Shown piece after piece: positions 43,746 through 64,000 of a stretch of 64,000 nt of DNA. Below the pieces are notes generated by a model that worked only from the letters and a program-made list of their open reading frames with translations, ran no database searches and was not told where the DNA came from. This DNA is from Halichondria panicea. Its lineage: Eukaryota. A program made the position numbers and the translations under genes. Positions within the stretch are counted from its first letter, which is position 1. The number at the start of each line of letters is the position of its first letter. The stretch is taken from assembly GCF_963675165.1 (NCBI RefSeq), contig NC_087392.1:14022-78021 (forward strand), given 5' to 3'.

Positions 43746-46319
43746 TCACCATTGAGATACAGACACACTTATATATTCACCATAGGTGGATGAATTGCGC
43801 TGGTGAATGAGATGGATCCCTCCATTAGAGCAGATGCTATCTTGTCTTGGTCTACGATCATTCTCACTGCTCTGATACTCCTTCTTCATCTGGGAGAACA
43901 GGAAATACACCTTGGGGGCAAACAGACAGCACAGGGTGGTGGTGGCGCTCAGAGCTATCCCTAGGACAAGAGAACTTGTCTGAAAGATTGTACCTAGCTG
44001 CGAGGTGGCAAAATATGTAGGGATAAATGCCAGCCAGATAATGACAATGGTGTACAATGTGAGATTGATGAATTTGGCCTCATTGAAATTCTGAGGAACC
44101 TTGCGAGCTCGAAATGCAAAATATGTACTCAACAACAACAGAAATAGACTGTAACCAAATGATGCTGATATTCCAATATAGGGAGACTCGCCACATTTCA
44201 GCTCTGTACTGAAATCATTGTAGACCAATAGAATGCTTGGCGGTTCCACTACCAACCAGATCACAGCAATGACTACCTGTACAGCAATGAGCAGTAGTGT
44301 TAGTGCCACCTGGCTCTGTGGACTAATGAGGGAGGGGGTGCTAACTGAACCAGGTCTACGGTTGAATATACGATGAATACGATTAGTCTTAATCAACAGT
44401 GCACTATAGCAAAGAGTGAAACAGAAACCAAGCCCAAACCTTCGAATACCACACACAACAGCAGAGGGTCGAATAATGAAAGCAAAGGGAAGCAAATAAC
44501 ACAACAATAACCCAGTCAACAGGAAAGCACTCAACTCGCGACTAGAGCCCTTGACAATCTGATGCTTGTAGAACACAACAAAGATGATAATAACACTCAC
44601 TGTTAGTGCAATCCCAACAATAGCAACAACCATGATGATAATAGACCATGCATGAGACCATGTCAGGAAGGTGAGGGGTATGAGCTCACACTGGGTCATG
44701 TTCGTATTAGGGGCATAACCTTGTTCACATTCTCTACACTTCTCGCCAGTACTCACGTGCCTGTTGCCAAGACAACGCTTACAGATCCAACAACAAGCAG
44801 CTTGATCTGATACCCTCTCTGGATACTGCCCGCCCCCACACTTGACACTACACACTGACTCTGGCATGTCTCCATCAATCCACTCCACATCACTGTGTAG
44901 AGACAGCATTGCATTAGAGGCAGTCCACACACCCACCTGTCTGAACCTATGCTGCCCACTCTCCAACTGAAGGTTCTTAATGATGAAGCTGCCTTGTTCA
45001 TCTCCACTGGCATCAAATGAAATCTCTCGTGCAGAAGCTCCTGGTGAGAATGAAACATTGTGTAAATACGTTTGTAATAGTTCTCCATTCACTGCATTAG
45101 TCCGAGGGTCAGTCATATCACGACATAAACCATGGCCACCGGGACACAAGGCTCTCTGCATGTCAGTCATAGCATGGGCAAAAGCATACACAGCATCAAT
45201 AGCAAAGGGAACTTTACTGTTCTGACGATATTCATTGTTGACTGAGATCCTGTCATTGCCATCACACTCCCTCACACCTGCCACTGGTTGAAATGAGCAG
45301 TTGAACACATTCTCCCAATATTCGCTAAACCACGGATTGTCAGCATTGTTGAGAGGGGTCAGTCCAGTGAAGTAATCATCAAACTGTTGGCTGTGTTTGG
45401 CCTGAGGGAGAACAGCTAACATACCATGCGCCACAGGGTACAAGTGGGAGGGGATCTGGTCCCCCCAAGCATCACTGGCTATCCACGTTATGTTCTTGAG
45501 AGGTCCACTTCCTCTGCTCCTGTCTACAGCCTCCAGCACTTTCACAGCAGTGGCTAATTGTCCAAACAACACAGCCACAGATGCATTATTGACCCAGCTG
45601 CGTGACATGTCCAGCAACACCTCATCCAAGTCTTGACTAGTGGCCACCACTGGGACACTGATTTGAGTGGCTACACATGTCTCTGAACAGTTTCTACCCT
45701 CCAACGCTTTGAGCAATGCCTGAATTCCCACTGTACCATATACATCATCAGAGTGGAGGGCATACACATAGCTCCAGTTGAAGTGGTCAATCAGATCAGC
45801 CATGACTTGCGTCTGAAGAGAGTCAGGAGGTATCGTACGAAAGAAATAATCGAATCTAGTTCTGTCACTCAAAGTTTCTGCGGTGGAGGCATAACTGATT
45901 TGAGGGATCTTGAATAATCTGAGCAAACTAGCCACAGCAATAGAGACACTGCTTGAGGCTGCACCCACAACACCAGATATACCCAACACGCCGCGAGAGC
46001 TCACAAAGTGCAGGCTTTGTTCGAGGGCATAGTTAGACTGTGTGCAAGTGTCTCTAATCTCAAAGCTGAGTGTTATGCCAGGGAGAAGGGCTGTGTTGTT
46101 GTTGACCTTATCCACTGCTAATACCATTGCTTCAAGTCGTTGCAGTCCAAGGTCCAACACGTCACCACATTGGTTGTCCATGTTCTTGTGTACAGGGAAT
46201 AGAGCTCCTAAGATGACAATGTCTCCATGAGTAGGTAATGGTCCATTATAGACAGTGGCCCCAGCTAGGCACACAACACACACTAGTAACAAGGCAATCA
46301 TGATAGCTACTCTCCGCAT
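43746..46319 (-). CDS. class C (mGluR/CaSR-like) GPCR: signal peptide, Venus-flytrap ANF-receptor domain, cysteine-rich domain, 7TM; single exon
   Basis: 857-aa uninterrupted ORF. N-terminal signal MRRVAIMIALLLVCVVCLAGA. The VFT region reads ..GDIVILGALFPVH..SYASTAETLSDRTRFDYFFRTIPPDS... The cysteine-rich region reads CSVKCGGGQYPERVSDQAACCWICKRCLGNRHVSTGEKCRECEQGYAPNTNMTQCELIP. Seven hydrophobic segments follow, and the TM3 ..FGLGFCFTLCYSALLIKTNRIHRIF.. carries the class-C K/R-I-x-R-I-F signature. Confidence 0.85.
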   Translation of the reverse strand: MRRVAIMIALLLVCVVCLAGATVYNGPLPTHGDIVILGALFPVHKNMDNQCGDVLDLGLQRLEAMVLAVDKVNNNTALLPGITLSFEIRDTCTQSNYALEQSLHFVSSRGVLGISGVVGAASSSVSIAVASLLRLFKIPQISYASTAETLSDRTRFDYFFRTIPPDSLQTQVMADLIDHFNWSYVYALHSDDVYGTVGIQALLKALEGRNCSETCVATQISVPVVATSQDLDEVLLDMSRSWVNNASVAVLFGQLATAVKVLEAVDRSRGSGPLKNITWIASDAWGDQIPSHLYPVAHGMLAVLPQAKHSQQFDDYFTGLTPLNNADNPWFSEYWENVFNCSFQPVAGVRECDGNDRISVNNEYRQNSKVPFAIDAVYAFAHAMTDMQRALCPGGHGLCRDMTDPRTNAVNGELLQTYLHNVSFSPGASAREISFDASGDEQGSFIIKNLQLESGQHRFRQVGVWTASNAMLSLHSDVEWIDGDMPESVCSVKCGGGQYPERVSDQAACCWICKRCLGNRHVSTGEKCRECEQGYAPNTNMTQCELIPLTFLTWSHAWSIIIMVVAIVGIALTVSVIIIFVVFYKHQIVKGSSRELSAFLLTGLLLCYLLPFAFIIRPSAVVCGIRRFGLGFCFTLCYSALLIKTNRIHRIFNRRPGSVSTPSLISPQSQVALTLLLIAVQVVIAVIWLVVEPPSILLVYNDFSTELKCGESPYIGISASFGYSLFLLLLSTYFAFRARKVPQNFNEAKFINLTLYTIVIIWLAFIPTYFATSQLGTIFQTSSLVLGIALSATTTLCCLFAPKVYFLFSQMKKEYQSSENDRRPRQDSICSNGGIHLIHQRNSSTYGEYISVSVSQW

Positions 46320-52100: not shown

Positions 52101-53493
52101 CCCACTAACATCACAGCCTTTGCTTTGAGTGACTTGATCTGCATGAAGTGAGCTACAATGGTGGGAGGGGGGAGGAGGGGGGATTGCTTACATGTTTAGG
52201 TAGCAGTGCTGATGATGGTGCAGTGGAGGGGTTGGATCCGAGGCCTAACTGATGAGCATCATTCAAACCACACGTGTACACAGACCCACTGCTCAGGGGG
52301 GGGTCTCAATAATAGCAGCCACTGATTGTAAGGCTCACCTTTTGGTTAGGATGACAGTATGGTTCCTAGCTGCAGCCACACCCACAGCCACACCCTCTAC
52401 AGTCCTCACAACACACGGAGTCTGCAACACAAGAGCCCCTCCATTTTTTTAGGTCAAAATTATAATTTCTATTTTAATACACACACACACAGAGCCTCAC
52501 CACTAGACTGTGCTCTGAGCCCCCCTCCCCACACATACACACACAGAGGCTCACCACTAGACTGTGCTCTGAGCCCCCCCCCCCCACACACACACACAGA
52601 GGCTCACCACTAGACTTTGCTCTGAGCCATGTCCCAGACGTCCACCTAGACCATGACCACATGTCAGCACACGCCCACACTCACTCAGGAACACACTGTG
52701 GAACTTGCAGAGGACCACCTGCAGAGGAAGTGAGGGGGTGTATGGAGTGAGGGGGTGTATGAAGTGAGGGGTGTATGGAGTGAGGGGTGTATGGAGTGAG
52801 GGGGTGCATGGAGTGAGGGGGTGTATGGAGTGAGGGGGTGTATGAGGAGAGCTACCTGAGCAGGTGAGAGGTTGTCTGGTAGCTCCAGTCTCTGAGGTGT
52901 ACTGCCTGAGAGGTCATGGCCTAGTGTAGTGTTGGTATTACTGCCCCAACTGTGGCCACTCACACCACCCACACCTGAGGGAGGGGGTCAATAAGAGGGA
53001 GGGGGGGTCACACTAACTAACGTACTCAGAGAGCTACTGAAGGTCTCCCTGTCCATATTGAGAATGGTGAGTGGTGTAGCGTTGTCATGGTCCCTCTGAC
53101 GAAGGTCTCCTCCAGCCTACAGGGATATAGTACAGAGGTTATACCATCACCCCATACCTTGACCAGTAGTGCTGCTGTCCCTAGCTGGCCATAATAAACA
53201 CTCCTGTGTAGAGCAGTCCATCGTGACTCCAGATCAGAGGTGTGTAGTTGAACCTTGTTATCCAGTAGCCATTGCACTAGTTGCAGATGACCCTTGGAGG
53301 CAGCCACATGGAGAGCAGTGCGACCGAGACTGTCTCTAATGTGCAGGTAGTTGCCACATAAGCAGCTGCAATGTTGGAGCAGCTTCAAGTTCCCCAGATA
53401 AGCCACTCCTAGGACTAGAGAAGCATGCGCCTCATAGGAACAATCTCGTGTGCAGTCCACACATACACTGCTCAGTCTAGAGCGCCTCGACAT
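46947..53493 (-). CDS. IBTK: inhibitor of Bruton tyrosine kinase (IBTK)-like: ankyrin repeats + RCC1 repeats + two BTB domains, multi-exon
   Basis: N-terminal exon 53026-53493: ..GRTALHVAASKGHLQLVQWLLDNKVQLHTSDLESRWTALHRSVYYGQLGTAALLVK (ANK). RCC1-type exons (..HSWGSNTNTTLGHDLSGSTPQRLELP..; ..AVMLVGAGRYHTALATHTEVFTMGKNHGQLGYER..). BTB exons (..IVKAFLRYLYGSHLQL..; ..ALLTLASQFGLEHL..; WLVRVLIVADQLLLFRLKDLCQ; VTLRNVPELLEIADTYSASQLKSSCLQFICVNAAALLEAR). An S/P-rich linker exon 48306-48947 and terminal exons end near 46947. Introns hold a (CA)n run at 49110-49180, a 30-bp x7 repeat at 47240-47455 and copies of the 348-bp family. Confidence 0.75.
47240..47455. repeat. 30-bp tandem repeat x7 (catgaccatccatcaaggccattgtt(a/g)) in an IBTK intron
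   Basis: Direct reading. It produces the MALMDGH.. / DHPSRPLLH.. pseudo-ORFs. Confidence 0.9.
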
Positions 53494-53854
53494 GACACCA
53501 CTAGCTCACTCCATCATCTAGGGGGACAGAATGGCTGTTTATAGGGCTAGGGTATGTGGACTAGTAGATATAGCGGTTTATAGTATATAGCATGTATAGT
53601 GTGTGGGTGGCTGATTGCATACTAGCTGGACTGGTGTCTCTAACTCACCTACAGTAGTACACAGTAGTCATCAGTTGCAGTGGAAGGGACGGTGTATAGG
53701 GAGACACAAGTACCTGAGAAAATACTCATTTAAAACTCATTCACACCACACCCCTCAATATTTCTAGCGGCGTATAATCGAGGCTGCACAGCGCTGAAAC
53801 AACGCATGCGCAGTATACTAACGGCTTCCTAAGGCAAAAACCGTAAACTTTAGG

Positions 53855-55020
53855 ATGCAAAATTCGAACTGGTTTTTAGAAGAGATGACAGTGTCTTATT
53901 ACTTGACTCTACTTGTTGTAACCTGCTTGTTGTGTAGGCTCAGTGCTGGCTATCCTTTCTCAGGTAAGAGAAACAATATGACTTACCTATCATTCAAAAC
54001 TATCCATACCTGACTGCTCACTGTAGGAGAGGACAAGCACTTCGATAAGGTAACTGTTGACATAAAAGATGTCACTAACACCACTGCTCTCATGGAGTGG
54101 GTGGTTCCACATGATCAAGGACAAGTTGACAGTTACACTGTAGGTGTCTCGTGCACATTGTATTCTTTATCTTGTCATCCTGCAGGTCTCTTGTACTACT
54201 TCAGAATCTCAGCCTCTGGAATTCCCTGCTTCTAATGAAGCCAAGCAGATGGCTCTCACTGACTTGATACCCAATACTGACTATTCGTGTTCTCTATTGG
54301 CCAATGACAAGACAAGATGGAAAAACATCCTGGACCCGATCCACTTCACCACCCTCAATACTACCAAAGGTGAACTCTCTATCATAATGCACTAGTATAA
54401 GTGTTTGTTGCAGGCTCAGTTGCCAAGTCATCAGTGACCACTAAAAATAGGACCCTACTCTTGCTGAGTATTCTACTGCCAATCTTTCTGCTAACAGTCT
54501 GCATAGGAGGCTGTGTCCTTACCATACTGGAAGTGAAGAAGAAGAAAATTGATGAGAACAAAAAGTAACTTAACTTGTTTTTTTCATATATATACTGGAG
54601 TGTTGTCATATTAATTCACGCAGACCTATGAGTTATAAGTCTGTGAGTTATAGAGGACAAGGGTCCAATCCAGACACACTAAAGAAGGATTACAAGAAGC
54701 TTTGGCAAGACATGCGCACCAAGTATAAGCGACCAGAACTACAGACTCCCTCAAACACAAAATCCAACAATCAAGTTCTGTTTGATAAGAGCCCCGAACC
54801 AAATTCCCACCACAACCCAGTGCTACAAGACAACGAAGCTGAGGCTGAGATACTGATATCACCTCTGATGCCATTAACTCTTTTAGATCTCTCTACTTCT
54901 CTGTTGCCTAGTATGCAAACACAGTTGATAGAAGACTACTCCAAGCTGGACCACAACATGACACTGGACAATGTACAGCTCCCGTTCCCACCTCCTAGTG
55001 AGGATGACATTATCGTCTAG
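53855..55020 (+). CDS. small type-I membrane protein with one fibronectin-III-like ectodomain, ~5 exons
   Basis: Ex1 53855-~53962 (MQNSNWFLEEMTVSYYLTLLVVTCLLCRLSAGYPFS|gtaag). Ex2 ~54003-54140 (GEDKHFDKVTVDIKDVTNTTALMEWVVPHDQGQVDSYTV). Ex3 ~54186-54372 (SCTTSESQPLEFPAS..DYSCSLLAND..). The TM exon reads ..[31 protein letters not shown]. The cytoplasmic exon 54628-55020 reads ..KKLWQDMRTKYKRPELQ..EDDIIV*. FN3 assignment rests on the W..Y..C pattern only. Confidence 0.45.
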
Positions 55021-55167
55021 TACATTCAAGAAATCACATTAAAATCACATTTGTTGCATATCATTATTATTTTTATGGTCAAGTTATGATTCGTATAATT
55101 ATATCATTGGTGTACGTACATACAGTTCAAATCACAACAGCTATAATTATAATTAAATGTAATAAAA

Positions 55168-56688
55168 CTAAAGTGGTTCTAGATTGATCTTGATACCATT
55201 CTTGCTTCGTAACACAACTTTAGGGGCTGTCTCAACTTTGTGTCCTTGTACTAGCGATAACTTGAATCTGTTTAGAATGGAGGCAATCACAATCCTCTCT
55301 TCATTCAGAGCAAAGTTCTGTCCAATGCAGTTTCGCTGACCACCAGAAAATGGAATGTAGGCATAGGGGTCACGACCCTCGCAGTTGCTGGGATGGAAAC
55401 GAAGAGGGTCATATTCATCAGGATTCTCCCAAGTTTCCGGGTGGCGATGGATCTGTCGTATACCAATGCCAAAGTTCATCCCCTTGGGAATGATATGGCC
55501 GTCCAGTATCATTTCCTCCGTTGCTTTTCTGAATATAAAGAAGACAGGAGGGTAGAGTCTCATGGCCTCCTTGATGGCCCACTGAGTGTACTTGAGCTCT
55601 TTAAGATCATCATAGTCAAGGGTGTCTCGTCCCTGAAGCACACTCCTCACCTCCTCACGTACTTTCTCCTGGGCCTCAGGATGCTTTGCTAGACAGTACA
55701 GGGTCCAGCACATCCCACTGGTCGTCGTGTCATGGCCCTCAAACATGAATGTGTCCACTTCATCTTGAATCTCTTGATCGGTGAGGCCATTGCCATCCTC
55801 GTCTCTAGCTATGAGCAGAACGTCCAGGAAATCCAGGTACTTCCCCTTCTTTCTAGTCCGCAGCTCACTCTCTGAGAAGCCAGTTTTGCCCACTTCCAAC
55901 TCTTCCTTTCTCTTTTGTACAACCATTCTCGAGTGACTGTGCACAAACTGACAAAGTTTGTTGTACTTGCGTCCAGTGGGTGTCAAGTTGAATAGCCAGT
56001 CAATTCTGCCAACCAAAGTAACGAATCTCTCTGTGGTCAGTTCTACTAGCTCTTGAACCGCCTCAATATATGGATGGCTTTGTGTAGTGTCTTGACAATT
56101 GCTGGAGAAACTGAAAGAGCACTGAAGGATGATATCCAGTGAGAGCAAACTAATGCTATTAAAAAGTTCAATTTGTTTATTTTTATCCATCAATGCTGTC
56201 CACTTGTCAAGTAATTCCTTAACACAATTGTTGTACACAGGCACATAAGGCTTGAGGATTTCGTAGTGAAAAGCTGGAGTTAGCAAACGACGATTTCTGG
56301 CCCATTTTGATCCTTTGGATATAAGAAGTCCATCGCCAAGCCAAGGTTTGAACAAACGATACTCGGCAGCGTTCTTAGGTTGCTTGAGCACCTTCCCTGC
56401 AAGACTGCAATGATAAATGTCGATGGACGGTTGGAATGGACCGATCCATGTTCTAACCATTTTCCAGCGCTTTTCTTTCACGGCATATTTCATAACTTTG
56501 TGATATTCCTCTTCAGATTCCAACATCTTTCGTACGTCAAGTAAGTTTCCAAACAGCCAATGTGCTGGAAGTCCTGGGATGTTTCTAACTGCCTTCCAAT
56601 GAACATAGTATCGAAACAGACGACCTGGAACATTGAAGATGAACAATCCGACCAGTAAGAGTGCAGAAATCACAAGCAAAGGCTCCAT
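55168..56688 (-). CDS. cytochrome P450, CYP4-clan, single exon (copy A, 506 aa)
   Basis: N-terminal membrane anchor MEPLLVISALLLVGLFIF; I-helix EGHDTTTSGM; ExxR EAMRLYPPV; PERF-like DPLRFHP; heme-binding FSGGQRNCIGQNFA. The CYP4-type motif EVDTFMFEGHDTT is present. Confidence 0.9.
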   Translation of the reverse strand: MEPLLVISALLLVGLFIFNVPGRLFRYYVHWKAVRNIPGLPAHWLFGNLLDVRKMLESEEEYHKVMKYAVKEKRWKMVRTWIGPFQPSIDIYHCSLAGKVLKQPKNAAEYRLFKPWLGDGLLISKGSKWARNRRLLTPAFHYEILKPYVPVYNNCVKELLDKWTALMDKNKQIELFNSISLLSLDIILQCSFSFSSNCQDTTQSHPYIEAVQELVELTTERFVTLVGRIDWLFNLTPTGRKYNKLCQFVHSHSRMVVQKRKEELEVGKTGFSESELRTRKKGKYLDFLDVLLIARDEDGNGLTDQEIQDEVDTFMFEGHDTTTSGMCWTLYCLAKHPEAQEKVREEVRSVLQGRDTLDYDDLKELKYTQWAIKEAMRLYPPVFFIFRKATEEMILDGHIIPKGMNFGIGIRQIHRHPETWENPDEYDPLRFHPSNCEGRDPYAYIPFSGGQRNCIGQNFALNEERIVIASILNRFKLSLVQGHKVETAPKVVLRSKNGIKINLEPL

Positions 56689-56865
56689 GTTTTAGCTCAG
56701 CTATAATTAATTATTATTTTGCCATTCAGCAGCCCCTCCCCTTTAGGCTTACCTTAGGGGAGGACTACTACTACTGCAATTTATAAGAATAAGAATCAAA
56801 TTTTCAGTGTTCCAACAAAAATATAATATAAACTCTAGAGCTAGAAGAATGGAATACATCACACA

Positions 56866-58401
56866 TTACAATGCAGACTCAATGTTCACTAAAATATCAT
56901 TCTTGCTTCGTAACACAACTTTAGGAACAGTCTCAACTTTGTGTCCTTGTACTAGCGATAACTTGAATCTATTTACAATGGAGGCAGTCACAATCCTCTC
57001 TTCATTCAGAGCAAAGTTCTGTCCAATGCAGTTTCGCTGACCACCAGAGAATGGAATGTAGGCATAGGGGTCACGACCCTCGCAGTTGCTGGGATGGAAA
57101 CGAAGAGGGTCATACTCATCAGGATTATCCCAAGTGTCCGGGTGGCGATGGATCTGTCGTATGGACAGGCCAACAGTCATACCTTTAGGAATCTCGTGGC
57201 CATCCAGAACAAGGTTTCCATCAGATTGGCGGAATATAAAGAAGACAGGAGGGTAGAGTCTCATGGCCTCCTTGATGGCCCACTGAGTGTACTTGAGCTC
57301 TTTAAGATCATCATAGTCGAGGGTGTCTCGTCCCTGAAGCACACTCCTCACCTCCTCACGCACTTTCTCCTGTGCCTCAGGATGCTTTGCTAGACAGTAC
57401 AGGGTCCAGCACATTCCACTGGTCGTCGTGTCATGGCCTTCAAACATGAACGTGTCTACTTCATCTCTAATCTCGAGGTCAGTCAGTCCCTCTCCAGTCT
57501 CATCTTCAGCAGTGAGTAGAATGTCGAGAAAATCTAAATGTCTCTTTTGTCGTGTTTTAGCTAACAGTTCTTCTCGTTTCAACACTTTCTCTCCTGAATC
57601 AAGGCCCAGAAACTCCTTTCTTTCCTTTATAACCCCCTCAGAGTATTGATGAGCTTTGTTGCAGGCATCACGGAATTGTCTCCCCTCAGACGTGAGGTAG
57701 TACAGTATATCAATCCTCTTGAGTGGTGATGTGAATCGTGTTGCAGTCAGTTCAACAAGGTCTTGTACTGTTCTAATGTACGGGTGAGCAGTGGTGGCAG
57801 TTTGACAGTTACTCTGAAAGCTAAACGCACATTGCATTATCACGTCCAGTGAGAGCAGCCCGATTGAATCGAAGAGCTTCACCGACTGACCACCTTCAGC
57901 CGGTGAAACACTCCACTTGTCCAATAGTACCTCTGTACAGTCGTTGTAGATACCCACATAGCCTTTGAGGATATCGTAATGGAAAGCTGGAGTGAGGAGG
58001 CGACGATTCCTGAACCATTTGCTCCCTCCAGAGATGAGAAGTCCATCCCCTAGCCATGGCTTGATGAGACCATACACCTCACTATCCTTGGAGGCCTTGA
58101 GCACAGGACCGACAAGAGAGCAATGCTGAATAGCAACCATCGGAAAGAATGGGCCCAGCCAACTCCTAGTCAACTTGTGCTTGTTCTGAAATATGAAGTT
58201 AGTCCATTTCTTGGTAGTTTCTTCATCCAGATTGATTTGATGTAGGTTTCCCCATAGCCAGTGTGTTGGCCATCCAGGCAGCGCCCTCACTGCATTGCAC
58301 TGTATGTAATAGCCATAGAGCGCTGGTGGGAGCTTTAGAAGGAGCACTGCAATCACGAGAGTGGCTGCAGCTACACACAACAGGGACACAACATACTCCA
58401 T
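56866..58401 (-). CDS. cytochrome P450, CYP4-clan, single exon (copy B, 511 aa), tandem paralogue of copy A
   Basis: Same motif set as copy A. The C-terminal ~190 codons are ~97-98% identical at the DNA level to copy A (e.g. 56891-57150 vs 55201-55460), whereas the N-terminal halves are strongly diverged. Only ~177 bp separate the copy B stop from the copy A start. Confidence 0.9.
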   Translation of the reverse strand: MEYVVSLLCVAAATLVIAVLLLKLPPALYGYYIQCNAVRALPGWPTHWLWGNLHQINLDEETTKKWTNFIFQNKHKLTRSWLGPFFPMVAIQHCSLVGPVLKASKDSEVYGLIKPWLGDGLLISGGSKWFRNRRLLTPAFHYDILKGYVGIYNDCTEVLLDKWSVSPAEGGQSVKLFDSIGLLSLDVIMQCAFSFQSNCQTATTAHPYIRTVQDLVELTATRFTSPLKRIDILYYLTSEGRQFRDACNKAHQYSEGVIKERKEFLGLDSGEKVLKREELLAKTRQKRHLDFLDILLTAEDETGEGLTDLEIRDEVDTFMFEGHDTTTSGMCWTLYCLAKHPEAQEKVREEVRSVLQGRDTLDYDDLKELKYTQWAIKEAMRLYPPVFFIFRQSDGNLVLDGHEIPKGMTVGLSIRQIHRHPDTWDNPDEYDPLRFHPSNCEGRDPYAYIPFSGGQRNCIGQNFALNEERIVTASIVNRFKLSLVQGHKVETVPKVVLRSKNDILVNIESAL

Positions 58402-58603
58402 ACTTTACTGAACTTTCAGCTAGCTTGTAATTTATATGTTTACCTTGATGTCACATGACCACAAAGTACATGCAACTTGAGCACCCACCCACGCAATTGC
58501 CAATTGGTTGTTTTTTGACATTGCAGAATAATTATTAAAATCACCAGGCAACACAGCACTAGATTCTACACATAAAATACTACACAAACACAAATATCGA
58601 CAC

Positions 58604-61600
58604 TGTCAAGTTGGTCGTGGTAAAAGTCCATTCATATCAGGCTGTAAGAATTCATCCATGATGCTCTGCACAGTGTCACTGAGAGTGGCCCTCAGCTCTG
58701 CCTCCGGGGTCCTGAGAGGGTAGGGAGGTAGCCATACACTAGTGACAGGGAGAACTTACTTGGTTCTTGGTTCAGTGAATAGCTCAACGTAGTACTTGAC
58801 CTTTGGTTCTGTCCCACTAGTCCTGAGTGTGAACACACAGTTGTTGTCCAGAGTGAAGGTGATGAGTTGAGAGCGAGGGTCCACTGGCAATACCTGGAAA
58901 CACTATATATGATACACACACTTGCATGCAATGACCTTTACCGGAAGGTAGTGAGGAGGCCTTGTGCTGTCATAGCCGACAGTGAGGTCTACCACAGAGG
59001 TCACGTTGTGTTTCCCACACCTCGTGGGGTACTAGGAGAGAGGGGGCAATACACAGAGGCATAGGGGGTAGTGTACCTACCTCCAACTATACACAGAGGC
59101 GTAGGGGGTAGTGTACCTACCTCCAACTATACACAGAGGCGTAGGGGGTAGTGTACCTACCTCCAACTATACACAGAGGCGTAGGGGGTAGTGTACCTAC
59201 CTCCAACTATACACAGAGGCGTAGGGGGTAGTGTACCTACCTCCAACTATACACAGAGGCGTAGGGGGTAGTGTACCTACCTCCAACTATACACAGAGGC
59301 GTAGGGGGTAGTGTACCTACCTCCAACTATACACAGAGGCGTAGGGGGTAGTGTACCTACCTCCAACTATACACAGAGGCGTAGGGGGTAGTGTACCTAC
59401 CTCCTTGTTGCCACGCAGTCTGTCAAAGATCCTCTGTATAGTGACTTGGTCATAGCATATATAGTAGGAGACATGTGTGAGGTAGTAGCCATACCTACAG
59501 ACAGGGCAGTGAGTGGTACTGCACACAGTGATGGAGCTCACCTGTGGTAGAGAATGGCGAGTTGATCATGGAAAGTCTTGTCCTGAGAGTGGAGCCATCC
59601 GCCATACTCTGCCAACACTGCAGCTGCACTGATGCCATCTTTATCCAGTACTGTACTGCCAAACATGTAGCCAATAGCCTCCTCATAAGCAAACAGCACT
59701 GTCTTTCCCTCAGCCTGCAAGCTATGGGTCCTATTGCCCATCCACTTGAACCCTGTCAGTGTCTCCTGTTACAGGGACAAAGGCTGAACACAGTGTACAG
59801 TGAGAGATGCAAGGTCACCTCAAAGTTGAAGCCCTCCTCTTTAGCAAGAGATCGGATGAACTTGGAGGACACTGTGCTGGCCAGCATATACACCTTAGAC
59901 CCTGCAGGAGGTCAGTGCAGGAGGTCAATGCAGGAGGTTAGTTATTAGAACCAAACTGAAAGATTTAGTGCAGCGGCCACTTCTACAAAATCATGACATT
60001 GGATCAACGGTACTAAAGTTATGGCTGTTGGAAAGATGGACTCTTTCAGCTGCCATAACTTAAATTCCGTGGATACAATTGCAACGATTTTTTGATTTTC
60101 TGAAAGCTTAGAAAGAGATCTTTAAAATGGTATCATCAAAATTCTTATTTGAGTGATAAAATTATTTGCCAATTCAGCCATACCATGGATAATAGCCCAT
60201 GGTCCAAGGCCGAAAAACGAGAAATTAGAGCCCCGACAAAATTTTGGATCGAAACACATCATTTGAAAGGTATTTTCCTAAGCTTTCAGAAAATCATAAA
60301 ATTTTTGACATTGGATAAACGGTACTAAAGTTATGGCTGTTGAAAGATGTTCAACTACACCCCTCCGTTTAATCTCAGAATAGTATCAAGAACTGACCAT
60401 CAAAGGAGGAAGTAAGTGAGTCCTTGTAGATGTTGACGGCCCACCATGACAACAAAGCCCCTGTCTCATTCCCACTGAATATCTTCCATTGTCCAGTAGT
60501 GGGATGCCTCTCAGCCAGAGCCAGTCTATCAGCATCAGGGTCAGTGGCGAGGATCACAGAACTCCCATTCTCCTCAGCTGTACGCATAGCCAGGTCCTGT
60601 GTTAGACAGTAGGTGTGTCTGTCGGGTATTGCTATAGCAACGGCTTACAAGGGCACTCTTTCCTTCCTCTGGGTTAGGGAACTGGACAGTGGGGAAGTCA
60701 GGGTCAGGGGTCATCTGTTCCTTGACTGGTATCAGCTCTGGTAGTCCAAATGCTTGGAAGGCCTTGACCACAGCATCCCCGCCCACTCCATGCATGGGTG
60801 TGAAGGTGTACCTCAAACCAGGCTCAGAATTGAACACACGTCTGTAGTGTCATATCACATTTAGTGGTGTGTTGTACCTGACACAATGCCTCTGTATCTA
60901 TAGTGGTGTGTTGTACCTGACACAATGCCTCTGTATGGCCTGGTAGTAGCACTCCTCAACGCCTGCCAGTGGGTCACTCACTAGGTGACTGCTAGTAATG
61001 ACCTCCGTGAACCATGACCTCTCCCAAGGGGTCAACTGGGCCTCAATCTGCGTTGCTATGCCAACATCGTGAGGGGGGATAATCTAAAAGGGTAGCAAGT
61101 CCATTAAAAGCAGCTCTAGGATTGTTAGCACACACCCACACCCCCGCACACACACCCCCGCACACCCACACACACCTGTGCCCCGTTGTCCCAGTAAACC
61201 TTGTAGCCATTATACTCCTTTGGGTTGTGAGAGGCAGTGACTTGAACACCTGCTACACAACCATAGTGGAGTACAGCATACGCCTGGGAGGAGGGGCAAT
61301 AGATCACATGACACAAGGTCAACACTCTCACCACATAGGGGGTGGGAACGTGGTGGGAAAACAGACGAACTTTGAACCCTTTGTTGAGGAATATCGAGGC
61401 AGTGAGTTGTGCAAACCTGGGAATTGATTACCATGACAACAGTTATTCGCGTATAAAAGGTTCTGCTCACCGGAGGCTATTGTATCGTGCATCATAGCCG
61501 ATAGCCACACCCCTTTCCAGTACCTGTGAGGGCGTGAAGCACTGCAGGAGGTAGCTGGCCAGGCCCTGTGTGTGTGTGTGTGTGTGTGAGGTGATGACAT

Positions 61601-62119
61601 AAGACAAGCTATTGAGTACGAGGTATGAAAACCATTCACAGCATTTGTGTGAGTGTCATACCTGAGTGGTTTGAATGATGGTGAGGTCGTTCATCATACT
61701 GTAGCCAGCCCCCATCTTGGCACGAAGACCTAGTATAACATCATTATACAATATACATTAGCACATACATACTGGCCGAACCCTGTACTCTGTACCCTGA
61801 GAGCCTCACCTGCTGTTCCGAATGCCATCCTCGAGCCTAGTCGACAGTTGAGCTCTCCTTCATTCTCCTCTCCAAGCAGACGCTCTATCACAGCACGAGT
61901 GACTGGGTCCTGGGATGGAGACAACACACTCAAGGACTATCACAATGGCCACCAGCCTAGCTAGCTGCACTCAAGGTCTATCAATGACCACCAGTCTAGC
62001 TAGCTGCACACCTTGTCCAGCCTCAGCCATTCTTCCACTAGCTCCTTGGTTCGATCAGTGAGTCCTCTCTCCATCATACTGCCTGCACCATTCTCCATCA
62101 AGCAGCTAACCTCTTCCAT
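58604..62119 (-). CDS. PGM2: phosphoglucomutase-2 / phosphopentomutase (PGM2-like), multi-exon
   Basis: N-terminal exon [36 protein letters not shown]|gtgtgc (start ~62119). Then ..[16 protein letters not shown]..; the active-site exon ..[29 protein letters not shown] (phosphoserine loop TASHNP); ..[55 protein letters not shown]; ..[35 protein letters not shown].. (Mg-binding DPDADR); ..[31 protein letters not shown]..; and the last exon ..[34 protein letters not shown] (stop ~58604). Confidence 0.85.
59040..59400. repeat. 40-bp tandem repeat x9 (cagaggcgtagggggtagtgtacctacctccaactataca) in a PGM2 intron
   Basis: Direct reading: nine essentially perfect units. Confidence 0.9.
59960..60370. 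repeat. copy of the ~348-bp repeat family in a PGM2 intron
   Basis: Shares ..ataatagcccatggtccaaggccgaaaaa.. and ..ttttgacattggat(c/a)aacggtactaaagttatggctgttg.. with the units at 40600-42640. Confidence 0.7.
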
Positions 62120-62816
62120 CTCTGTGTGTTCAGATCAGACTAGTTATAAGCAGTACCTCGTACACCAGCGGAGCCCTGGATGTGCACTTCTTTAGCATCC
62201 GCACGTACTTAACTTATGAAGTAGCTAGTTTCTGTTTACCTTGTTATCACGTGTGTGTGTGTGCGTGTGTAAATATTAGATCTCTGATTAGATCTTTATC
62301 CCTTGGTCGCGTGTGATCAAACTATTGAGCTCTGACAGACAAGGTTCAGGTTCAATTCCTGCAAGGGACATGGTACTCTTTTTTTTCCAATAACTTTTTT
62401 GGTCAAAATAACAATAGGAAAACAAAATAATGATACACTAATAAGTTCTACTAATAAGTTCTACTATATGTATAACTATAAGTACTAATAAGTTCAAATT
62501 CTCTCTGCCCTATTGCGACCTTTAGACCTTGACTGCACGGCCGGCCCATGACATTGCTCATGTGATCACCTGCAGGCTAAGCAGGAACAATACAATAATA
62601 GCACAATAGAGAGCGACTACTACCCTGGCCAATCACATGGCAGGCTAGTAGCAACAGCTGTTGCCGTATTTGCTAGTTAGAATCATATGATTTTACTTTT
62701 AAACAAACTTGTCACGATTAACATTATTCATAAGTCAGCACATGACCCACATTCACCCCACACAGCACATATAAACCCCATGCAGCTTGGGTCCCATTAC
62801 ACCACCCATTGACAAC

Positions 62817-64000
62817 ATGAAGACTCACCTTGCTCTAGTAGCCTTGGCTGTGTTCTGTGTAGCCGTGGAGGGACAACAACCTGGTAACCAGAAGCCAGAG
62901 ATCCACCCCCAACTCTCCATGCAGACATGCACACAGTCAGGAGGCTGTGTTACACAACAGAAGAGTGTAGTGCTGGATGCCAACTGGCGATGGCTACACA
63001 CGGTCACTGGATACACCAACTGCTACACTGGCACCACCTGGGACAAGAGCCTCTGTCCTGATGGCAAGACATGCGCTACCAACTGTGCCCTAGATGGGGC
63101 AGATTATGAGGGAACCTACGGAGTACATGCAAGTGGCAACTCTCTTAAACTAGACTTTCTTATTAAGGGACAATATGCTATCAATGTGGGCTCTAGACTT
63201 TACCTAATGGACTCAGAGAACGAGTACTACATGTTCAAGCTTAAGAACAAAGAGTTCACCTTTGATGTTGATGTGTCCAACCTTCCTTGCGGCATCAATG
63301 GTGCACTATACATGATTCAGATGGACGGAGATGGAGGCACATCACGATTCCCAGCTAACAAAGCCGGAGCAAAGTTTGGAACAGGTTATTGTGATGCACA
63401 ATGTCCCCACGATATCAAGTTCATCAACGGAGAGGCCAACTGCGAGGATTGGGACTCCACAAATGCAGTGGGTAAATATGGTACCTGCTGTAGCGAGATG
63501 GACATCTGGGAGTCCAACAGCATCTCCACAGCCTACACCACTCATGTGTGCACAGTCCAGGGCCAGACAAGGTGTGAGGGGCAACAATGTGGCGATGGCA
63601 GTCAGAGACACGATGGGGTGTGTGACAAGGACGGTTGTGACTTTAATCCATATCGAATGGGAGACAAGAGCTTCTTTGGTCCAGCACAAAACTTCAGCAT
63701 TGACTCAACGCAAGTGTTGACAGTGGTGACTCAGTTCATAACTGCTGACGGCACAGATACTGGTGACCTGAAGGAGATTAAGAGGATATGGGTACAAAAT
63801 GGAAAGGTCATTCAAACACGAAATGTCAACGTCATGAACAGCACCTTCAACTCCACTACTGACGATTTCTGCAACAAACAGAAGGCATCGTTTGGAGATC
63901 CTAATGATTATGAGAAGAGAGGTGGTAACAAGGCAATGGGTGATGCTATGGACAAGGGGATGGTACTAGCTCTGAGCCTATGGGACGATCATGCTGCCTA
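62817..64000 (+). CDS. glycoside hydrolase family 7 cellobiohydrolase (secreted), apparently intronless; 3' end runs off the window
   Basis: One continuous frame from ATG 62817 to the window end (394 codons; no stop within the window, so it is absent from the ORF track). Signal peptide [21 protein letters not shown]7 hallmarks: QTCTQSGGC..; ..LDANWRWLH..; ..[26 protein letters not shown]..; ..[21 protein letters not shown]..; and the catalytic motif [13 protein letters not shown] (E-x-D-x-x-E). Confidence 0.85.

What the first reader, a model, noticed from the sequence alone, without database searches (positions are those of the whole stretch)
62300..64000. GH7 cellobiohydrolase gene embedded in an animal-type genomic neighbourhood
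A near full-length GH7 cellobiohydrolase lies ~700 bp from PGM2 (upstream of its start) and within 4.5 kb of the CYP4 pair. Seen: signal peptide, the catalytic E-M-D-I-W-E motif and ~394 codons without interruption. The surrounding DNA is clearly eukaryotic and metazoan-like: GT-AG introns, (CA)n runs, a REPS-like EH-domain gene, a class-C GPCR, IBTK, CAMSAP and TRAF. GH7 is essentially a fungal/protist family. In animals it is known from only a few lineages (certain crustaceans), where it underlies endogenous lignocellulose digestion. Its presence here is either a lineage-specific endogenous cellulase or an old horizontal acquisition. Its apparently intronless structure contrasts with the intron-rich neighbours (PGM2, IBTK). 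Because the gene is at the window edge, linkage to the host genome rests on only ~700 bp of upstream sequence plus PGM2 on the opposite strand.
Basis: partly seen in the sequence, partly recalled or inferred. Interest (0 to 1): 0.8.

Follow-up and report, generated by a model that had tools for sequence, protein, structure and literature searches.

The report
Sponge's own GH7 cellulase gene
The window ends in a real, intact cellulose-degrading enzyme gene (family GH7) that belongs to the genome of the breadcrumb sponge Halichondria panicea, not to a contaminant; sponge GH7 genes are already on record but have never been studied biochemically.

Summary
An open frame starts at ATG 62817 and runs 394 codons to the window edge. 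It matches Pfam GH7 (PF00840) at E=2.4e-167 and carries a 19-residue signal peptide and the catalytic motif E227-M-D229-I-W-E232.

It is 100% identical to the first 394 residues of RefSeq XP_064404155.1, an "uncharacterized protein" of 455 aa from Halichondria panicea.

Contamination or chimerism is excluded:
- The PGM2–GH7 junction is base-identical in six other assemblies.
- A 1.97-Mb contig continues into host genes (L4-family ribosomal protein, DEP-domain gene, a class-II tRNA-synthetase-domain (PF00152) gene, dynactin p22).
- CpG depletion (0.32) equals the window's (0.33).
- A syntenic orthologue gives dN/dS = 0.06.

In my trees the protein sits in a 97%-supported clade with the published Amphimedon GH7 and about 75 unlabelled sequences on eukaryotic contigs, often as tandem pairs. 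That clade never joins the crustacean GH7s (0/300 bootstraps) and does not nest in sampled fungi. Its deeper origin is unresolved.

The predicted fold matches cellobiohydrolases (TM 0.92) better than endoglucanases (0.73–0.80). The B2 tunnel loop is 5 residues shorter.

Most likely this is a secreted digestive cellobiohydrolase. It is a new member of a known kind, of modest interest.

The parts
62817..64000 (+). GH7 coding sequence, codons 1-394 of 455, cut by the window edge. The full gene is a single 1368-bp ORF.
   Evidence: Translation. PF00840 at E=2.4e-167. 100% identity to XP_064404155.1 / P0121. Full ORF at L003 10001-11368.
62817..62873 (+). Signal peptide, residues 1-19 ([19 protein letters not shown]). 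The predicted mature N-terminus is Gln20.
   Evidence: Hydrophobic core read directly from the sequence. Residue 20 aligns with residue 1 of the mature chains 2xsp, 1q9h and 1gpi. pLDDT is below 50 for residues 1-17. No dedicated signal-peptide predictor was available.
63495..63512 (+). Catalytic motif E227-M-D229-I-W-E232: nucleophile Glu, Asp, and acid/base Glu of retaining GH7 enzymes.
   Evidence: E227, D229, W231 and E232 are invariant in the 38-sequence alignment. The residue roles come from established GH7 knowledge (TreCel7A E212/D214/E217).
63441..63479 (+). B2 tunnel-loop region (C209-Y221). It holds a 5-residue deletion relative to most sponge, fungal and crustacean GH7 cellobiohydrolases, and the clade-specific unpaired Cys209.
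   Evidence: Alignment blocks. Cysteine and diagnostic-column analysis. Functional importance of the B2 loop from PMC8329511.
62770..62775 (+). TATAAA, 47 bp upstream of the start codon. Candidate core promoter element.
   Evidence: Read directly from the sequence. Inference only; there is no transcript-start data.
62120..62816 (.). Intergenic region of 697 bp between the divergently oriented PGM2 and GH7 start codons.
   Evidence: The same DNA spans both genes at 100% identity in L003-L008. No tRNA and no Rfam match lie inside it.
62012..62119 (-). First coding exon of the neighbouring phosphoglucomutase-2-like host gene (36 codons, [36 protein letters not shown], followed by a GT donor). This is context that anchors the GH7 gene in the host genome.
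   Evidence: Read. Downstream minus-strand exons match PGM_PMM_I and PGM_PMM_II (for L004).

Best explanation
This is the 5' 87% of an intact nuclear gene of the demosponge Halichondria panicea. It encodes a secreted glycoside hydrolase family 7 enzyme of the cellobiohydrolase type, consisting of a catalytic domain only, with no carbohydrate-binding module.

Shown here: the gene is endogenous, complete (455 codons, single ORF), under strong purifying selection, and carries every catalytic and fold feature of GH7 cellobiohydrolases.

Inferred mechanism: after signal-peptide cleavage, the enzyme threads a beta-1,4-glucan chain through a loop-covered tunnel. It cleaves it by the retaining double-displacement mechanism (Glu227 nucleophile, Glu232 acid/base, Asp229 helper) and releases cellobiose.

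Inferred role: digestion of cellulose in filtered food, such as walls and thecae of microalgae and algal or plant detritus. This would happen in or around the phagocytic cells of the sponge, as proposed for Daphnia, Limnoria and phagotrophic protists.

The 5-residue shortening of the B2 tunnel loop, shared by a subclade of the sponge family, probably makes the tunnel more open and the enzyme less strictly processive.

Evolution: the gene belongs to an old sponge GH7 family, often found as tandem pairs. That family is distinct from the crustacean GH7s. Whether it descends from a phagotrophic ancestor or came by ancient transfer from a marine protist or fungus is not resolved.
For: Identity:
- 394/394 residues identical to XP_064404155.1 of H. 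panicea.

Endogeny:
- Window 52817-64000 is 100% identical to a 1.97-Mb, ~159x ENA contig (L003).
- Window 59290-64000 is 100% identical to an independent NCBI assembly (L004).
- Four Logan assemblies from separate runs cross the PGM2-GH7 junction colinearly.
- Downstream on L003 lie an L4-family ribosomal protein gene, a DEP-domain gene, a class-II tRNA-synthetase-domain (PF00152) gene and dynactin p22; a COMM-domain gene appears in L004.
- GH7 CpG o/e is 0.32 against 0.33 for the window. The RSCU correlation with host genes is 0.65, within the host range of 0.43-0.77.

Function retained:
- dN/dS = 0.062 (dS 0.53) against the syntenic orthologue in L001.
- The catalytic motif and 18 canonical cysteines are conserved.

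Fold and subtype:
- AlphaFold model, pLDDT 88.7.
- TM 0.92 and rmsd 1.4-1.6 A to cellobiohydrolases; TM 0.73-0.80 and rmsd 2.8-4.0 A to endoglucanases.
- HMMER bit scores of 400-545 to CBHs against 230-290 to EGs.

Family:
- Sponge clade supported at 97% bootstrap.
- Tandem pairs in L002, L011, L013 and L015.

Role:
- GH7 is among the genes predictive of phagotrophy, is expressed by heterotrophic flagellates and is absent from the phototrophs examined (PMC10268365).
- Amphimedon holds seven cellulase-containing GH families (PMC6011409).
Against: - There is no expression evidence. The Logan contigs that carry the gene look like genomic DNA: two start at a (GT)n repeat, none has a poly(A) tail, and the intergenic DNA is included.
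- There are no biochemical data for any sponge GH7, so substrate and mode of action are inferred from homology alone.
- The shortened B2 loop departs from the canonical cellobiohydrolase pattern. A published single-loop rule (more than 4 B2 residues means CBH) might class it as endoglucanase-like.
- Only two members of the 'sponge clade' carry a species name.
- My trees are neighbour-joining on simple distances, and the backbone is unresolved.
Confidence: 0.8

Rival explanations
1. Contamination or assembly chimera: the GH7 ORF comes from a fungus or protist living in the sponge and was joined to sponge DNA by mis-assembly.
For: GH7 is mainly a fungal and protist family. The gene sits at the window edge. 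Its GC3 (0.525) is slightly above that of the neighbouring host genes, 0.43-0.50.
Against: - The junction is identical in six assemblies made from different data.
- Host genes lie on both sides on a 1.97-Mb contig at ~159x.
- CpG depletion equals the host's.
- A syntenic orthologue exists in a related genome: 88% nucleotide identity, with the L4-family gene downstream.
- The closest named non-sponge protein is only about 62% identical.
Confidence: 0.01
2. The enzyme works as an endo-acting or mixed-mode beta-glucanase rather than a processive cellobiohydrolase, because the truncated B2 loop opens the tunnel.
For: There is a 5-residue deletion in B2, shared by a subclade. B2 length alone separates CBHs from EGs with 96.9% accuracy. 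B2 deletions change TreCel7A behaviour more than B3 or B4 deletions do (PMC8329511).
Against: - Overall sequence and predicted structure are clearly closer to CBHs than to EGs.
- B3 has the same length as in Heterobasidion Cel7A.
- The B4 and A3/A4 regions show no EG-type deletions.
- The N-W-R-W tunnel-entrance tryptophans are kept.
- In true EGs all four loops shorten together.
Confidence: 0.15
3. The gene serves a non-nutritional purpose, for example defence against cellulose-walled oomycetes or algal epibionts, or clearing bacterial cellulose biofilms from the canal system.
For: The protein is secreted and has no cellulose-binding module. The sponge family is found as tandem pairs at several loci, as defence genes often are. 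Nothing in the sequence specifies a digestive compartment.
Against: There is no direct evidence for this role. In other phagotrophs and in crustaceans, GH7 is linked to feeding (PMC10268365, PMC6011409). Strong purifying selection (dN/dS 0.06) is not the pattern of an arms-race gene.
Confidence: 0.12
4. The gene is a silent relic of an old transfer: intact by chance but not expressed.
For: No transcript evidence was obtainable here. There is no canonical AATAAA; only an ATTAAA lies about 33 nt after the stop codon.
Against: The ORF is 455 codons and intact in at least two diverged lineages with dS 0.53 and dN/dS 0.06. All catalytic residues and disulfide cysteines are conserved. A TATAAA lies 47 bp upstream. 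RefSeq models it as a protein-coding gene.
Confidence: 0.03

Closest known systems
Amphimedon queenslandica GH7 (Amphimedon_queenslandica.22707; Chang & Lai 2018, PMC6011409)
   Same: It is a demosponge GH7 with the same architecture: signal peptide plus catalytic domain, about 455-459 aa, no CBM. It is 69.8% identical and lies in the same 97%-supported clade. It shares the clade markers Cys209, Trp325 and W-E-S-N after the catalytic motif. The authors also found that it breaks metazoan GH7 monophyly.
   Different: Amphimedon keeps a full-length B2 loop and a B3 loop two residues longer. It sits in a different subclade and a different sponge order. No synteny was shown.
Fungal Cel7A cellobiohydrolases, e.g. 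Heterobasidion Cel7A (PDB 2XSP), Talaromyces emersonii Cel7A (1Q9H), Phanerochaete Cel7D (1GPI)
   Same: They are about 60% identical over the whole catalytic domain. The predicted structure superposes at TM 0.92 and rmsd 1.4-1.5 A. The catalytic motif, the 18 cysteines and the mature N-terminal Gln-Gln are the same.
   Different: The host is an animal. B2 is 5 residues shorter than in 2XSP and 1Q9H, whereas 1GPI is only 2 shorter. There is an extra unpaired Cys209 and a Trp where all others have Tyr. There is no CBM1. In my trees the sponge clade does not nest inside the sampled Dikarya.
Crustacean GH7 cellobiohydrolases (Limnoria LqCel7B 4GWA, Daphnia pulex CBH 4XNN, copepod and Artemia genes)
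   Same: These are endogenous animal GH7 enzymes without a CBM, with a presumed digestive role in aquatic feeders. The fold matches at TM 0.89-0.93.
   Different: Identity is only 48-56%. Crustaceans form their own clade at 85% bootstrap. An exclusive sponge+crustacean group appears in 0 of 300 bootstrap trees on the full-length alignment and 0 of 500 on the C-terminal alignment. This gives no support for a single animal GH7 lineage.
GH7 of marine phagotrophic protists (diplonemids Artemidia motanka and Namystynia karyoxenos; unlabelled P0110)
   Same: These are the nearest non-sponge sequences, at 61-63% identity. They share W-E-S-N. Artemidia also shares the extra Cys at position 209. They are the weakly supported sister group of the sponge clade (32-38%).
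   Different: They are unicellular euglenozoans. Some of these sequences carry C-terminal Cys-rich extensions that the sponge proteins lack. The relationship is not statistically supported.

Membership tests
Glycoside hydrolase family 7 (CAZy GH7 / Pfam PF00840) | Significant match to the family profile above the curated threshold | tested here: met
   PF00840 at E=2.4e-167, 557.5 bits against a cut-off of 27.
Glycoside hydrolase family 7 (CAZy GH7 / Pfam PF00840) | Catalytic E-x-D-x-x-E motif (nucleophile, helper Asp, acid/base) | tested here: met
   E227-M-D229-I-W-E232. These residues are invariant in a 38-sequence alignment.
Glycoside hydrolase family 7 (CAZy GH7 / Pfam PF00840) | Beta-jelly-roll (curved beta-sandwich) fold superposable on solved GH7 structures | tested here: met
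   AlphaFold2 model with pLDDT 88.7 and pTM 0.89. Foldseek gives TM 0.92 and rmsd 1.4-1.6 A to 2xsp, 1gpi and 1q9h.
Glycoside hydrolase family 7 (CAZy GH7 / Pfam PF00840) | Retaining hydrolysis of beta-1,4-glucosidic bonds | not testable with these tools
   This needs enzyme assays.
GH7 cellobiohydrolase subtype (as opposed to endoglucanase) | Closer in sequence and structure to CBHs than to EGs | tested here: met
   Bit scores are 400-545 (CBH) against 230-290 (EG). TM is 0.89-0.93 and rmsd 1.4-1.9 A (CBH), against TM 0.73-0.80 and rmsd 2.8-4.0 A (EG).
GH7 cellobiohydrolase subtype (as opposed to endoglucanase) | Conserved tunnel-entrance Trp (TreCel7A Trp40; rule from PMC8329511) | tested here: met
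   The N56-W57-R58-W59 motif is invariant. The rule is cited.
GH7 cellobiohydrolase subtype (as opposed to endoglucanase) | Long B2 loop (more than 4 residues by the rule of PMC8329511) | tested here: inconclusive
   B2 is 5 residues shorter than in 2xsp, 1q9h and Amphimedon. The paper's exact loop boundaries are in a figure that is not held, so the count could not be matched to the rule.
GH7 cellobiohydrolase subtype (as opposed to endoglucanase) | CBH-length B3, B4 and A4 loops | tested here: met
   B3 equals that of Heterobasidion Cel7A. The B4 and A3/A4 regions show no EG-type deletions.
Endogenous animal gene (as opposed to contaminant) | Physical linkage to host genes on both sides, reproduced in independent assemblies | tested here: met
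Endogenous animal gene (as opposed to contaminant) | Host-like composition and purifying selection across species | tested here: met
   CpG o/e 0.32 against 0.33 for the window; RSCU r = 0.65. dN/dS = 0.062 against the syntenic orthologue.
Endogenous animal gene (as opposed to contaminant) | Polyadenylated transcript in host RNA | not tested
   No RNA data were reachable. The Logan contigs look genomic.
Crustacean-type animal GH7 lineage (single metazoan origin) | Exclusive common ancestry of sponge and crustacean GH7 | tested here: not met
   0/300 bootstraps on the full-length alignment and 0/500 on the C-terminal alignment. The method was neighbour-joining only. The result agrees with PMC6011409.
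Horizontally acquired gene | Nested with support inside a donor clade | tested here: inconclusive
   The sponge clade is not nested in the sampled fungi. A sister relation to diplonemids plus P0110 has only 32-38% support, and the backbone is unresolved.

The most novel reading that the evidence does not exclude
Sponge GH7 genes may be an old family, widespread in demosponges, of single-ORF digestive cellobiohydrolases that are often found as tandem pairs. The family is independent of the crustacean one and nearest to those of marine phagotrophic protists. That would mean either retention from a phagotrophic pre-animal ancestor or a very early protist-to-sponge transfer. Sponges would then be direct, host-encoded degraders of particulate cellulose in the sea. 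Within this family the Halichondria subclade has evolved a B2-loop-truncated form, a natural hybrid between cellobiohydrolase and endoglucanase tunnel architecture.
Probability: 0.3. Interest if true: 0.55.

Novelty: new member of a known kind. Interest (0 to 1): 0.35.

Why it matters
Animal-encoded GH7 cellobiohydrolases are rare, and the crustacean ones have attracted interest as salt-tolerant cellulases. This work shows three things. The sponge gene is truly endogenous. It is strongly conserved. It belongs to a sizeable sponge-specific family, often arranged as tandem pairs.

That points to host-encoded cellulose digestion in a major group of marine filter feeders. Sponge carbohydrate breakdown is usually credited to the microbiome.

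The natural B2-loop deletion variant could inform engineering of processivity in Cel7 enzymes.

None of this is conceptually new. GH7 in Porifera is already noted in the literature, and the protein is already in RefSeq as an uncharacterised product.

Tried and rejected
1. Crustacean GH7 sequences from the supplements of PMC6011409. The stored files are truncated and held only the Amphimedon GH7.

2. Daphnia sequence from PDB alignments. Daphnia ranked 6th with full-length and N-terminal queries. Only the C-terminal 193 residues could be recovered.

3. A tree on those 190 C-terminal columns had too little signal: sponge clade 18-28%, crustaceans 56%. It was replaced by a full-length tree after a third protein search supplied named copepod and Artemia sequences.

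4. A protein search with the 193-aa fragment returned only short fragments, apparently because of a length filter.

5. Logan contigs as evidence of transcription were rejected. They are colinear with genomic DNA, two start in a (GT)n repeat, and none has a poly(A) tail.

6. Synteny with more distant sponge-clade loci (L002, L009-L012). None was found within ±10 kb.

7. The species behind L001 (sample RUSA22-1). A White Sea Halichondria metagenome paper could not be linked to that sample.

8. tRNA, Rfam and bacterial promoter/terminator scans of the intergenic region showed nothing meaningful.

9. The intronless coding sequence as a sign of foreign origin was rejected. Three neighbouring host genes are also single ORFs. 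In addition, the related sequences were found through prokaryote-style gene calls, which favour intronless copies.
Full report
**What is in the sequence**

The + strand has an ATG at 62817, followed by 394 codons with no stop up to the last base of the window. The translation matches Pfam PF00840 (glycoside hydrolase family 7) at E=2.4e-167, covering profile positions 2-376 of 435. It matches 40 distinct solved GH7 chains. The best is Heterobasidion Cel7A (2xsp) at E=1e-162.

Residues 1-19 form a typical signal peptide. Residue 20 (Gln-Gln...) aligns with residue 1 of the mature crystallised enzymes. The catalytic motif E-M-D-I-W-E occupies codons 227-232, bases 63495-63512.

The neighbour on the minus strand is a phosphoglucomutase-2-like gene. 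Its first coding exon ends at an ATG at 62119, so the two start codons are 698 bp apart, head to head (Pfam PGM domains). The two P450 ORFs lie 4.4 kb upstream.

**Which organism, and is the gene really part of its genome**

A search of the large protein collection gave a 94%-identical cluster. One member of that cluster is XP_064404155.1, "uncharacterized protein LOC135349549 [Halichondria panicea]", 455 aa. The window's 394 residues are 100% identical to it. The window is therefore breadcrumb-sponge DNA.

Evidence that the gene belongs to the sponge genome:
- The last 11,184 bases of the window are 100% identical to part of a 1.97-Mb, ~159x contig of an ENA assembly (L003).
- The last 4,711 bases are identical to an independent NCBI assembly (L004).
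- Four Logan assemblies of separate sequencing runs each cross from PGM2 into the GH7 gene without a single difference.
- Beyond the window the gene ends after 455 codons. On L003 it is followed by an L4-family ribosomal protein gene (in two exon pieces), a DEP-domain gene, a class-II tRNA-synthetase-domain (PF00152) gene and dynactin p22. A COMM-domain gene appears in L004.
- The gene's CpG observed/expected ratio (0.32) is the same as the window's (0.33).
- Its codon usage correlates with that of neighbouring host genes as well as they correlate with each other (r=0.65; host range 0.43-0.77). GC3 is slightly higher, 0.525 against 0.43-0.50.
- A second locus (L001, from an unnamed metagenome) carries an orthologue with 88% nucleotide and 94% protein identity and the same L4-family gene downstream. 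Between the two, dS=0.53 and dN/dS=0.062.

Contamination, chimerism and pseudogene status are thus excluded as far as sequence data can exclude them.

**Gene structure**

The coding sequence is one uninterrupted ORF. However, the class-C GPCR (857 aa) and both P450 genes in the same window are also single ORFs. The related genes I found elsewhere came from prokaryote-style gene calling, which favours intronless copies. I therefore give no weight to intronlessness as a sign of foreign origin.

A TATAAA lies 47 bp upstream of the ATG. An ATTAAA lies about 33 nt after the stop codon. Both are suggestive only. I found no transcript evidence. The Logan contigs are colinear with genomic DNA, two begin in a (GT)n repeat, and none has a poly(A) tail.

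**What kind of GH7**

An AlphaFold2 model of the full protein, built from a 38-sequence alignment, has mean pLDDT 88.7.

| Comparison | Cellobiohydrolases | Endoglucanases |
|---|---|---|
| TM-score | 0.89-0.93 | 0.73-0.80 |
| rmsd | 1.4-1.9 A | 2.8-4.0 A |
| HMMER bit score | 400-545 | 230-290 |

Further features:
- The tunnel-entrance N-W-R-W motif, the 18 canonical cysteines and the B3, B4 and A3/A4 loop regions are cellobiohydrolase-like.
- There is no linker or CBM1. The protein ends a few residues after the catalytic domain.
- The B2 loop is 5 residues shorter than in Heterobasidion, Talaromyces, Amphimedon and most relatives. The deletion is shared by a subclade (H. panicea, P0001, P0013, P0012, P0126, P0039, P0002).
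- According to Gado et al. (PMC8329511), B2 length alone separates cellobiohydrolases from endoglucanases with 96.9% accuracy. B2 deletions alter TreCel7A behaviour most. The enzyme may therefore have a more open tunnel and a more endo-capable mode. I could not match the paper's exact loop boundaries, so this stays inconclusive.
- Clade-specific residues are an unpaired Cys209 at the base of B2, Trp325 where every fungal, crustacean and diplonemid/P0110 sequence in the alignment has Tyr, and Pro278. Ser follows the catalytic W-E where fungal and crustacean sequences have Ala.

**Relatives and evolution**

I built neighbour-joining trees with Kimura-corrected distances and bootstrapping.

- Of the 120 best database hits, 78 fall with the Halichondria and Amphimedon proteins in one clade with 97.5% support.
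- Only those two species are named. The rest come from ENA, NCBI and Logan assemblies. Many lie on contigs of 0.4-4.5 Mb whose flanks hold split eukaryotic genes (Nop14, FANCI, mitochondrial carrier, fn3, collagen).
- Tandem or inverted GH7 pairs occur in four of these loci (L002, L011, L013, L015).
- I added named crustacean sequences (Tigriopus x2, Eurytemora, Artemia, Daphnia-like), a stramenopile, diplonemids, an oomycete and fungi. With these, the sponge clade keeps 96-97% support (95.7%, 97%) and crustaceans form their own clade at 85%.
- An exclusive sponge+crustacean group never appears: 0/300 on the full-length alignment and 0/500 on a C-terminal alignment that includes the Daphnia crystal sequence.
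- The sponge clade is not nested in the sampled Dikarya. Its nearest neighbours are diplonemid protists and an unlabelled sequence, with only 32-38% support. The backbone is unresolved.

Identity of the H. panicea protein to others:

| Comparison | Identity |
|---|---|
| Amphimedon | 69.8% |
| Diplonemids | 62-63% |
| Fungal Cel7A | ~60% |
| Crustaceans | 48-56% |

This agrees with Chang & Lai (PMC6011409), who listed an Amphimedon GH7 as the exception to metazoan GH7 monophyly. I cannot decide between ancient vertical descent with many losses and an early horizontal acquisition.

**Likely function**

By homology, the mature enzyme hydrolyses beta-1,4-glucan chains by the retaining mechanism and releases cellobiose. 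This is inferred, not shown.

The most plausible role in a filter feeder that digests particles by phagocytosis is breakdown of cellulose in algal walls, dinoflagellate thecae and plant or algal detritus. Three points support this:
- GH7 belongs to a gene set predictive of phagotrophy, is expressed by heterotrophic flagellates and is absent from the phototrophs examined (PMC10268365).
- Crustacean GH7s are linked to feeding.
- Amphimedon carries seven cellulase-containing GH families.

Defence against cellulose-walled organisms or biofilm clearing cannot be excluded.

**Novelty and verdict**

The sequence is already in RefSeq as an uncharacterised protein. GH7 in Porifera is noted in the GH7 literature (PMC8329511), and an Amphimedon gene was catalogued in 2018. 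Searches found no paper that characterises a sponge GH7 or mentions one in Halichondria.

The finding is real and correctly interpreted, but it is a new member of a known kind. The modest extra interest lies in three points: the size of the sponge-specific family and its frequent tandem arrangement, its separation from crustacean GH7s, and the natural B2-loop deletion variant.

Noticed in passing
window 59049-59404: A minisatellite of 8.9 copies of a 40-bp unit at 99% identity, inside the PGM2-like gene region. The independent assembly L004 starts within it, which suggests it breaks short-read assemblies.
   Followed up: partly
window 55168-56688 and 56866-58401 (minus strand): A tandem pair of cytochrome P450 genes, each a single uninterrupted ORF (506 and 511 aa; Pfam p450 E=1e-110 and 4e-104). 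One segment of 587 bp is 91.7% identical between them, indicating a recent duplication or gene conversion.
   Followed up: partly
window 43746-46319 (minus strand): A class-C GPCR (ANF receptor + NCD3G + 7tm_3) encoded as one 857-codon ORF without introns, in an otherwise intron-rich region.
   Followed up: no
L002 10001-13618; L013 1174-4585; L015 7660-11386; L011 10001-11452 and 16613-17591: In other, unnamed eukaryotic contigs of the same GH7 clade, the genes occur as tandem or inverted pairs, all as single ORFs. The copy in L011 is split into fragments and may be decaying.
   Followed up: partly
window 63441-63443 (Cys209); L003 10973-10975 (Trp325): Sponge-clade signature residues. An unpaired 19th cysteine is present in 97% of the clade and in one diplonemid. 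A Trp replaces a Tyr that is invariant in every fungal, crustacean and diplonemid/P0110 sequence in the alignment. Their structural meaning is unknown.
   Followed up: partly
L005-L008 3' ends (= L003 11561, 193 nt after the GH7 stop codon): All four Logan assemblies stop at exactly the same base downstream of the gene, without a poly(A) tail. The likely cause is a repeat or heterozygous branch point starting there. It was not examined.
   Followed up: no
window 60862-60936 and 61927-62009: Two short tandem duplications with a period of 39 bp, in PGM2-like introns or near exon 1.
   Followed up: no
window 60047-60344 (+): A weak Rfam match to the plant family MIR8007: 31 bits against a gathering score of 195, E=0.005. 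It is almost certainly a chance match.
   Followed up: no
L001 (ERZ23495869, sample RUSA22-1_SAMN23283058): A sponge-associated metagenome contig carries the syntenic GH7 orthologue at dS 0.53. This implies a distinct Halichondria-like host species or a deeply diverged population. Prokaryote-style gene calling gave it a spurious 32-residue N-terminal extension.
   Followed up: partly
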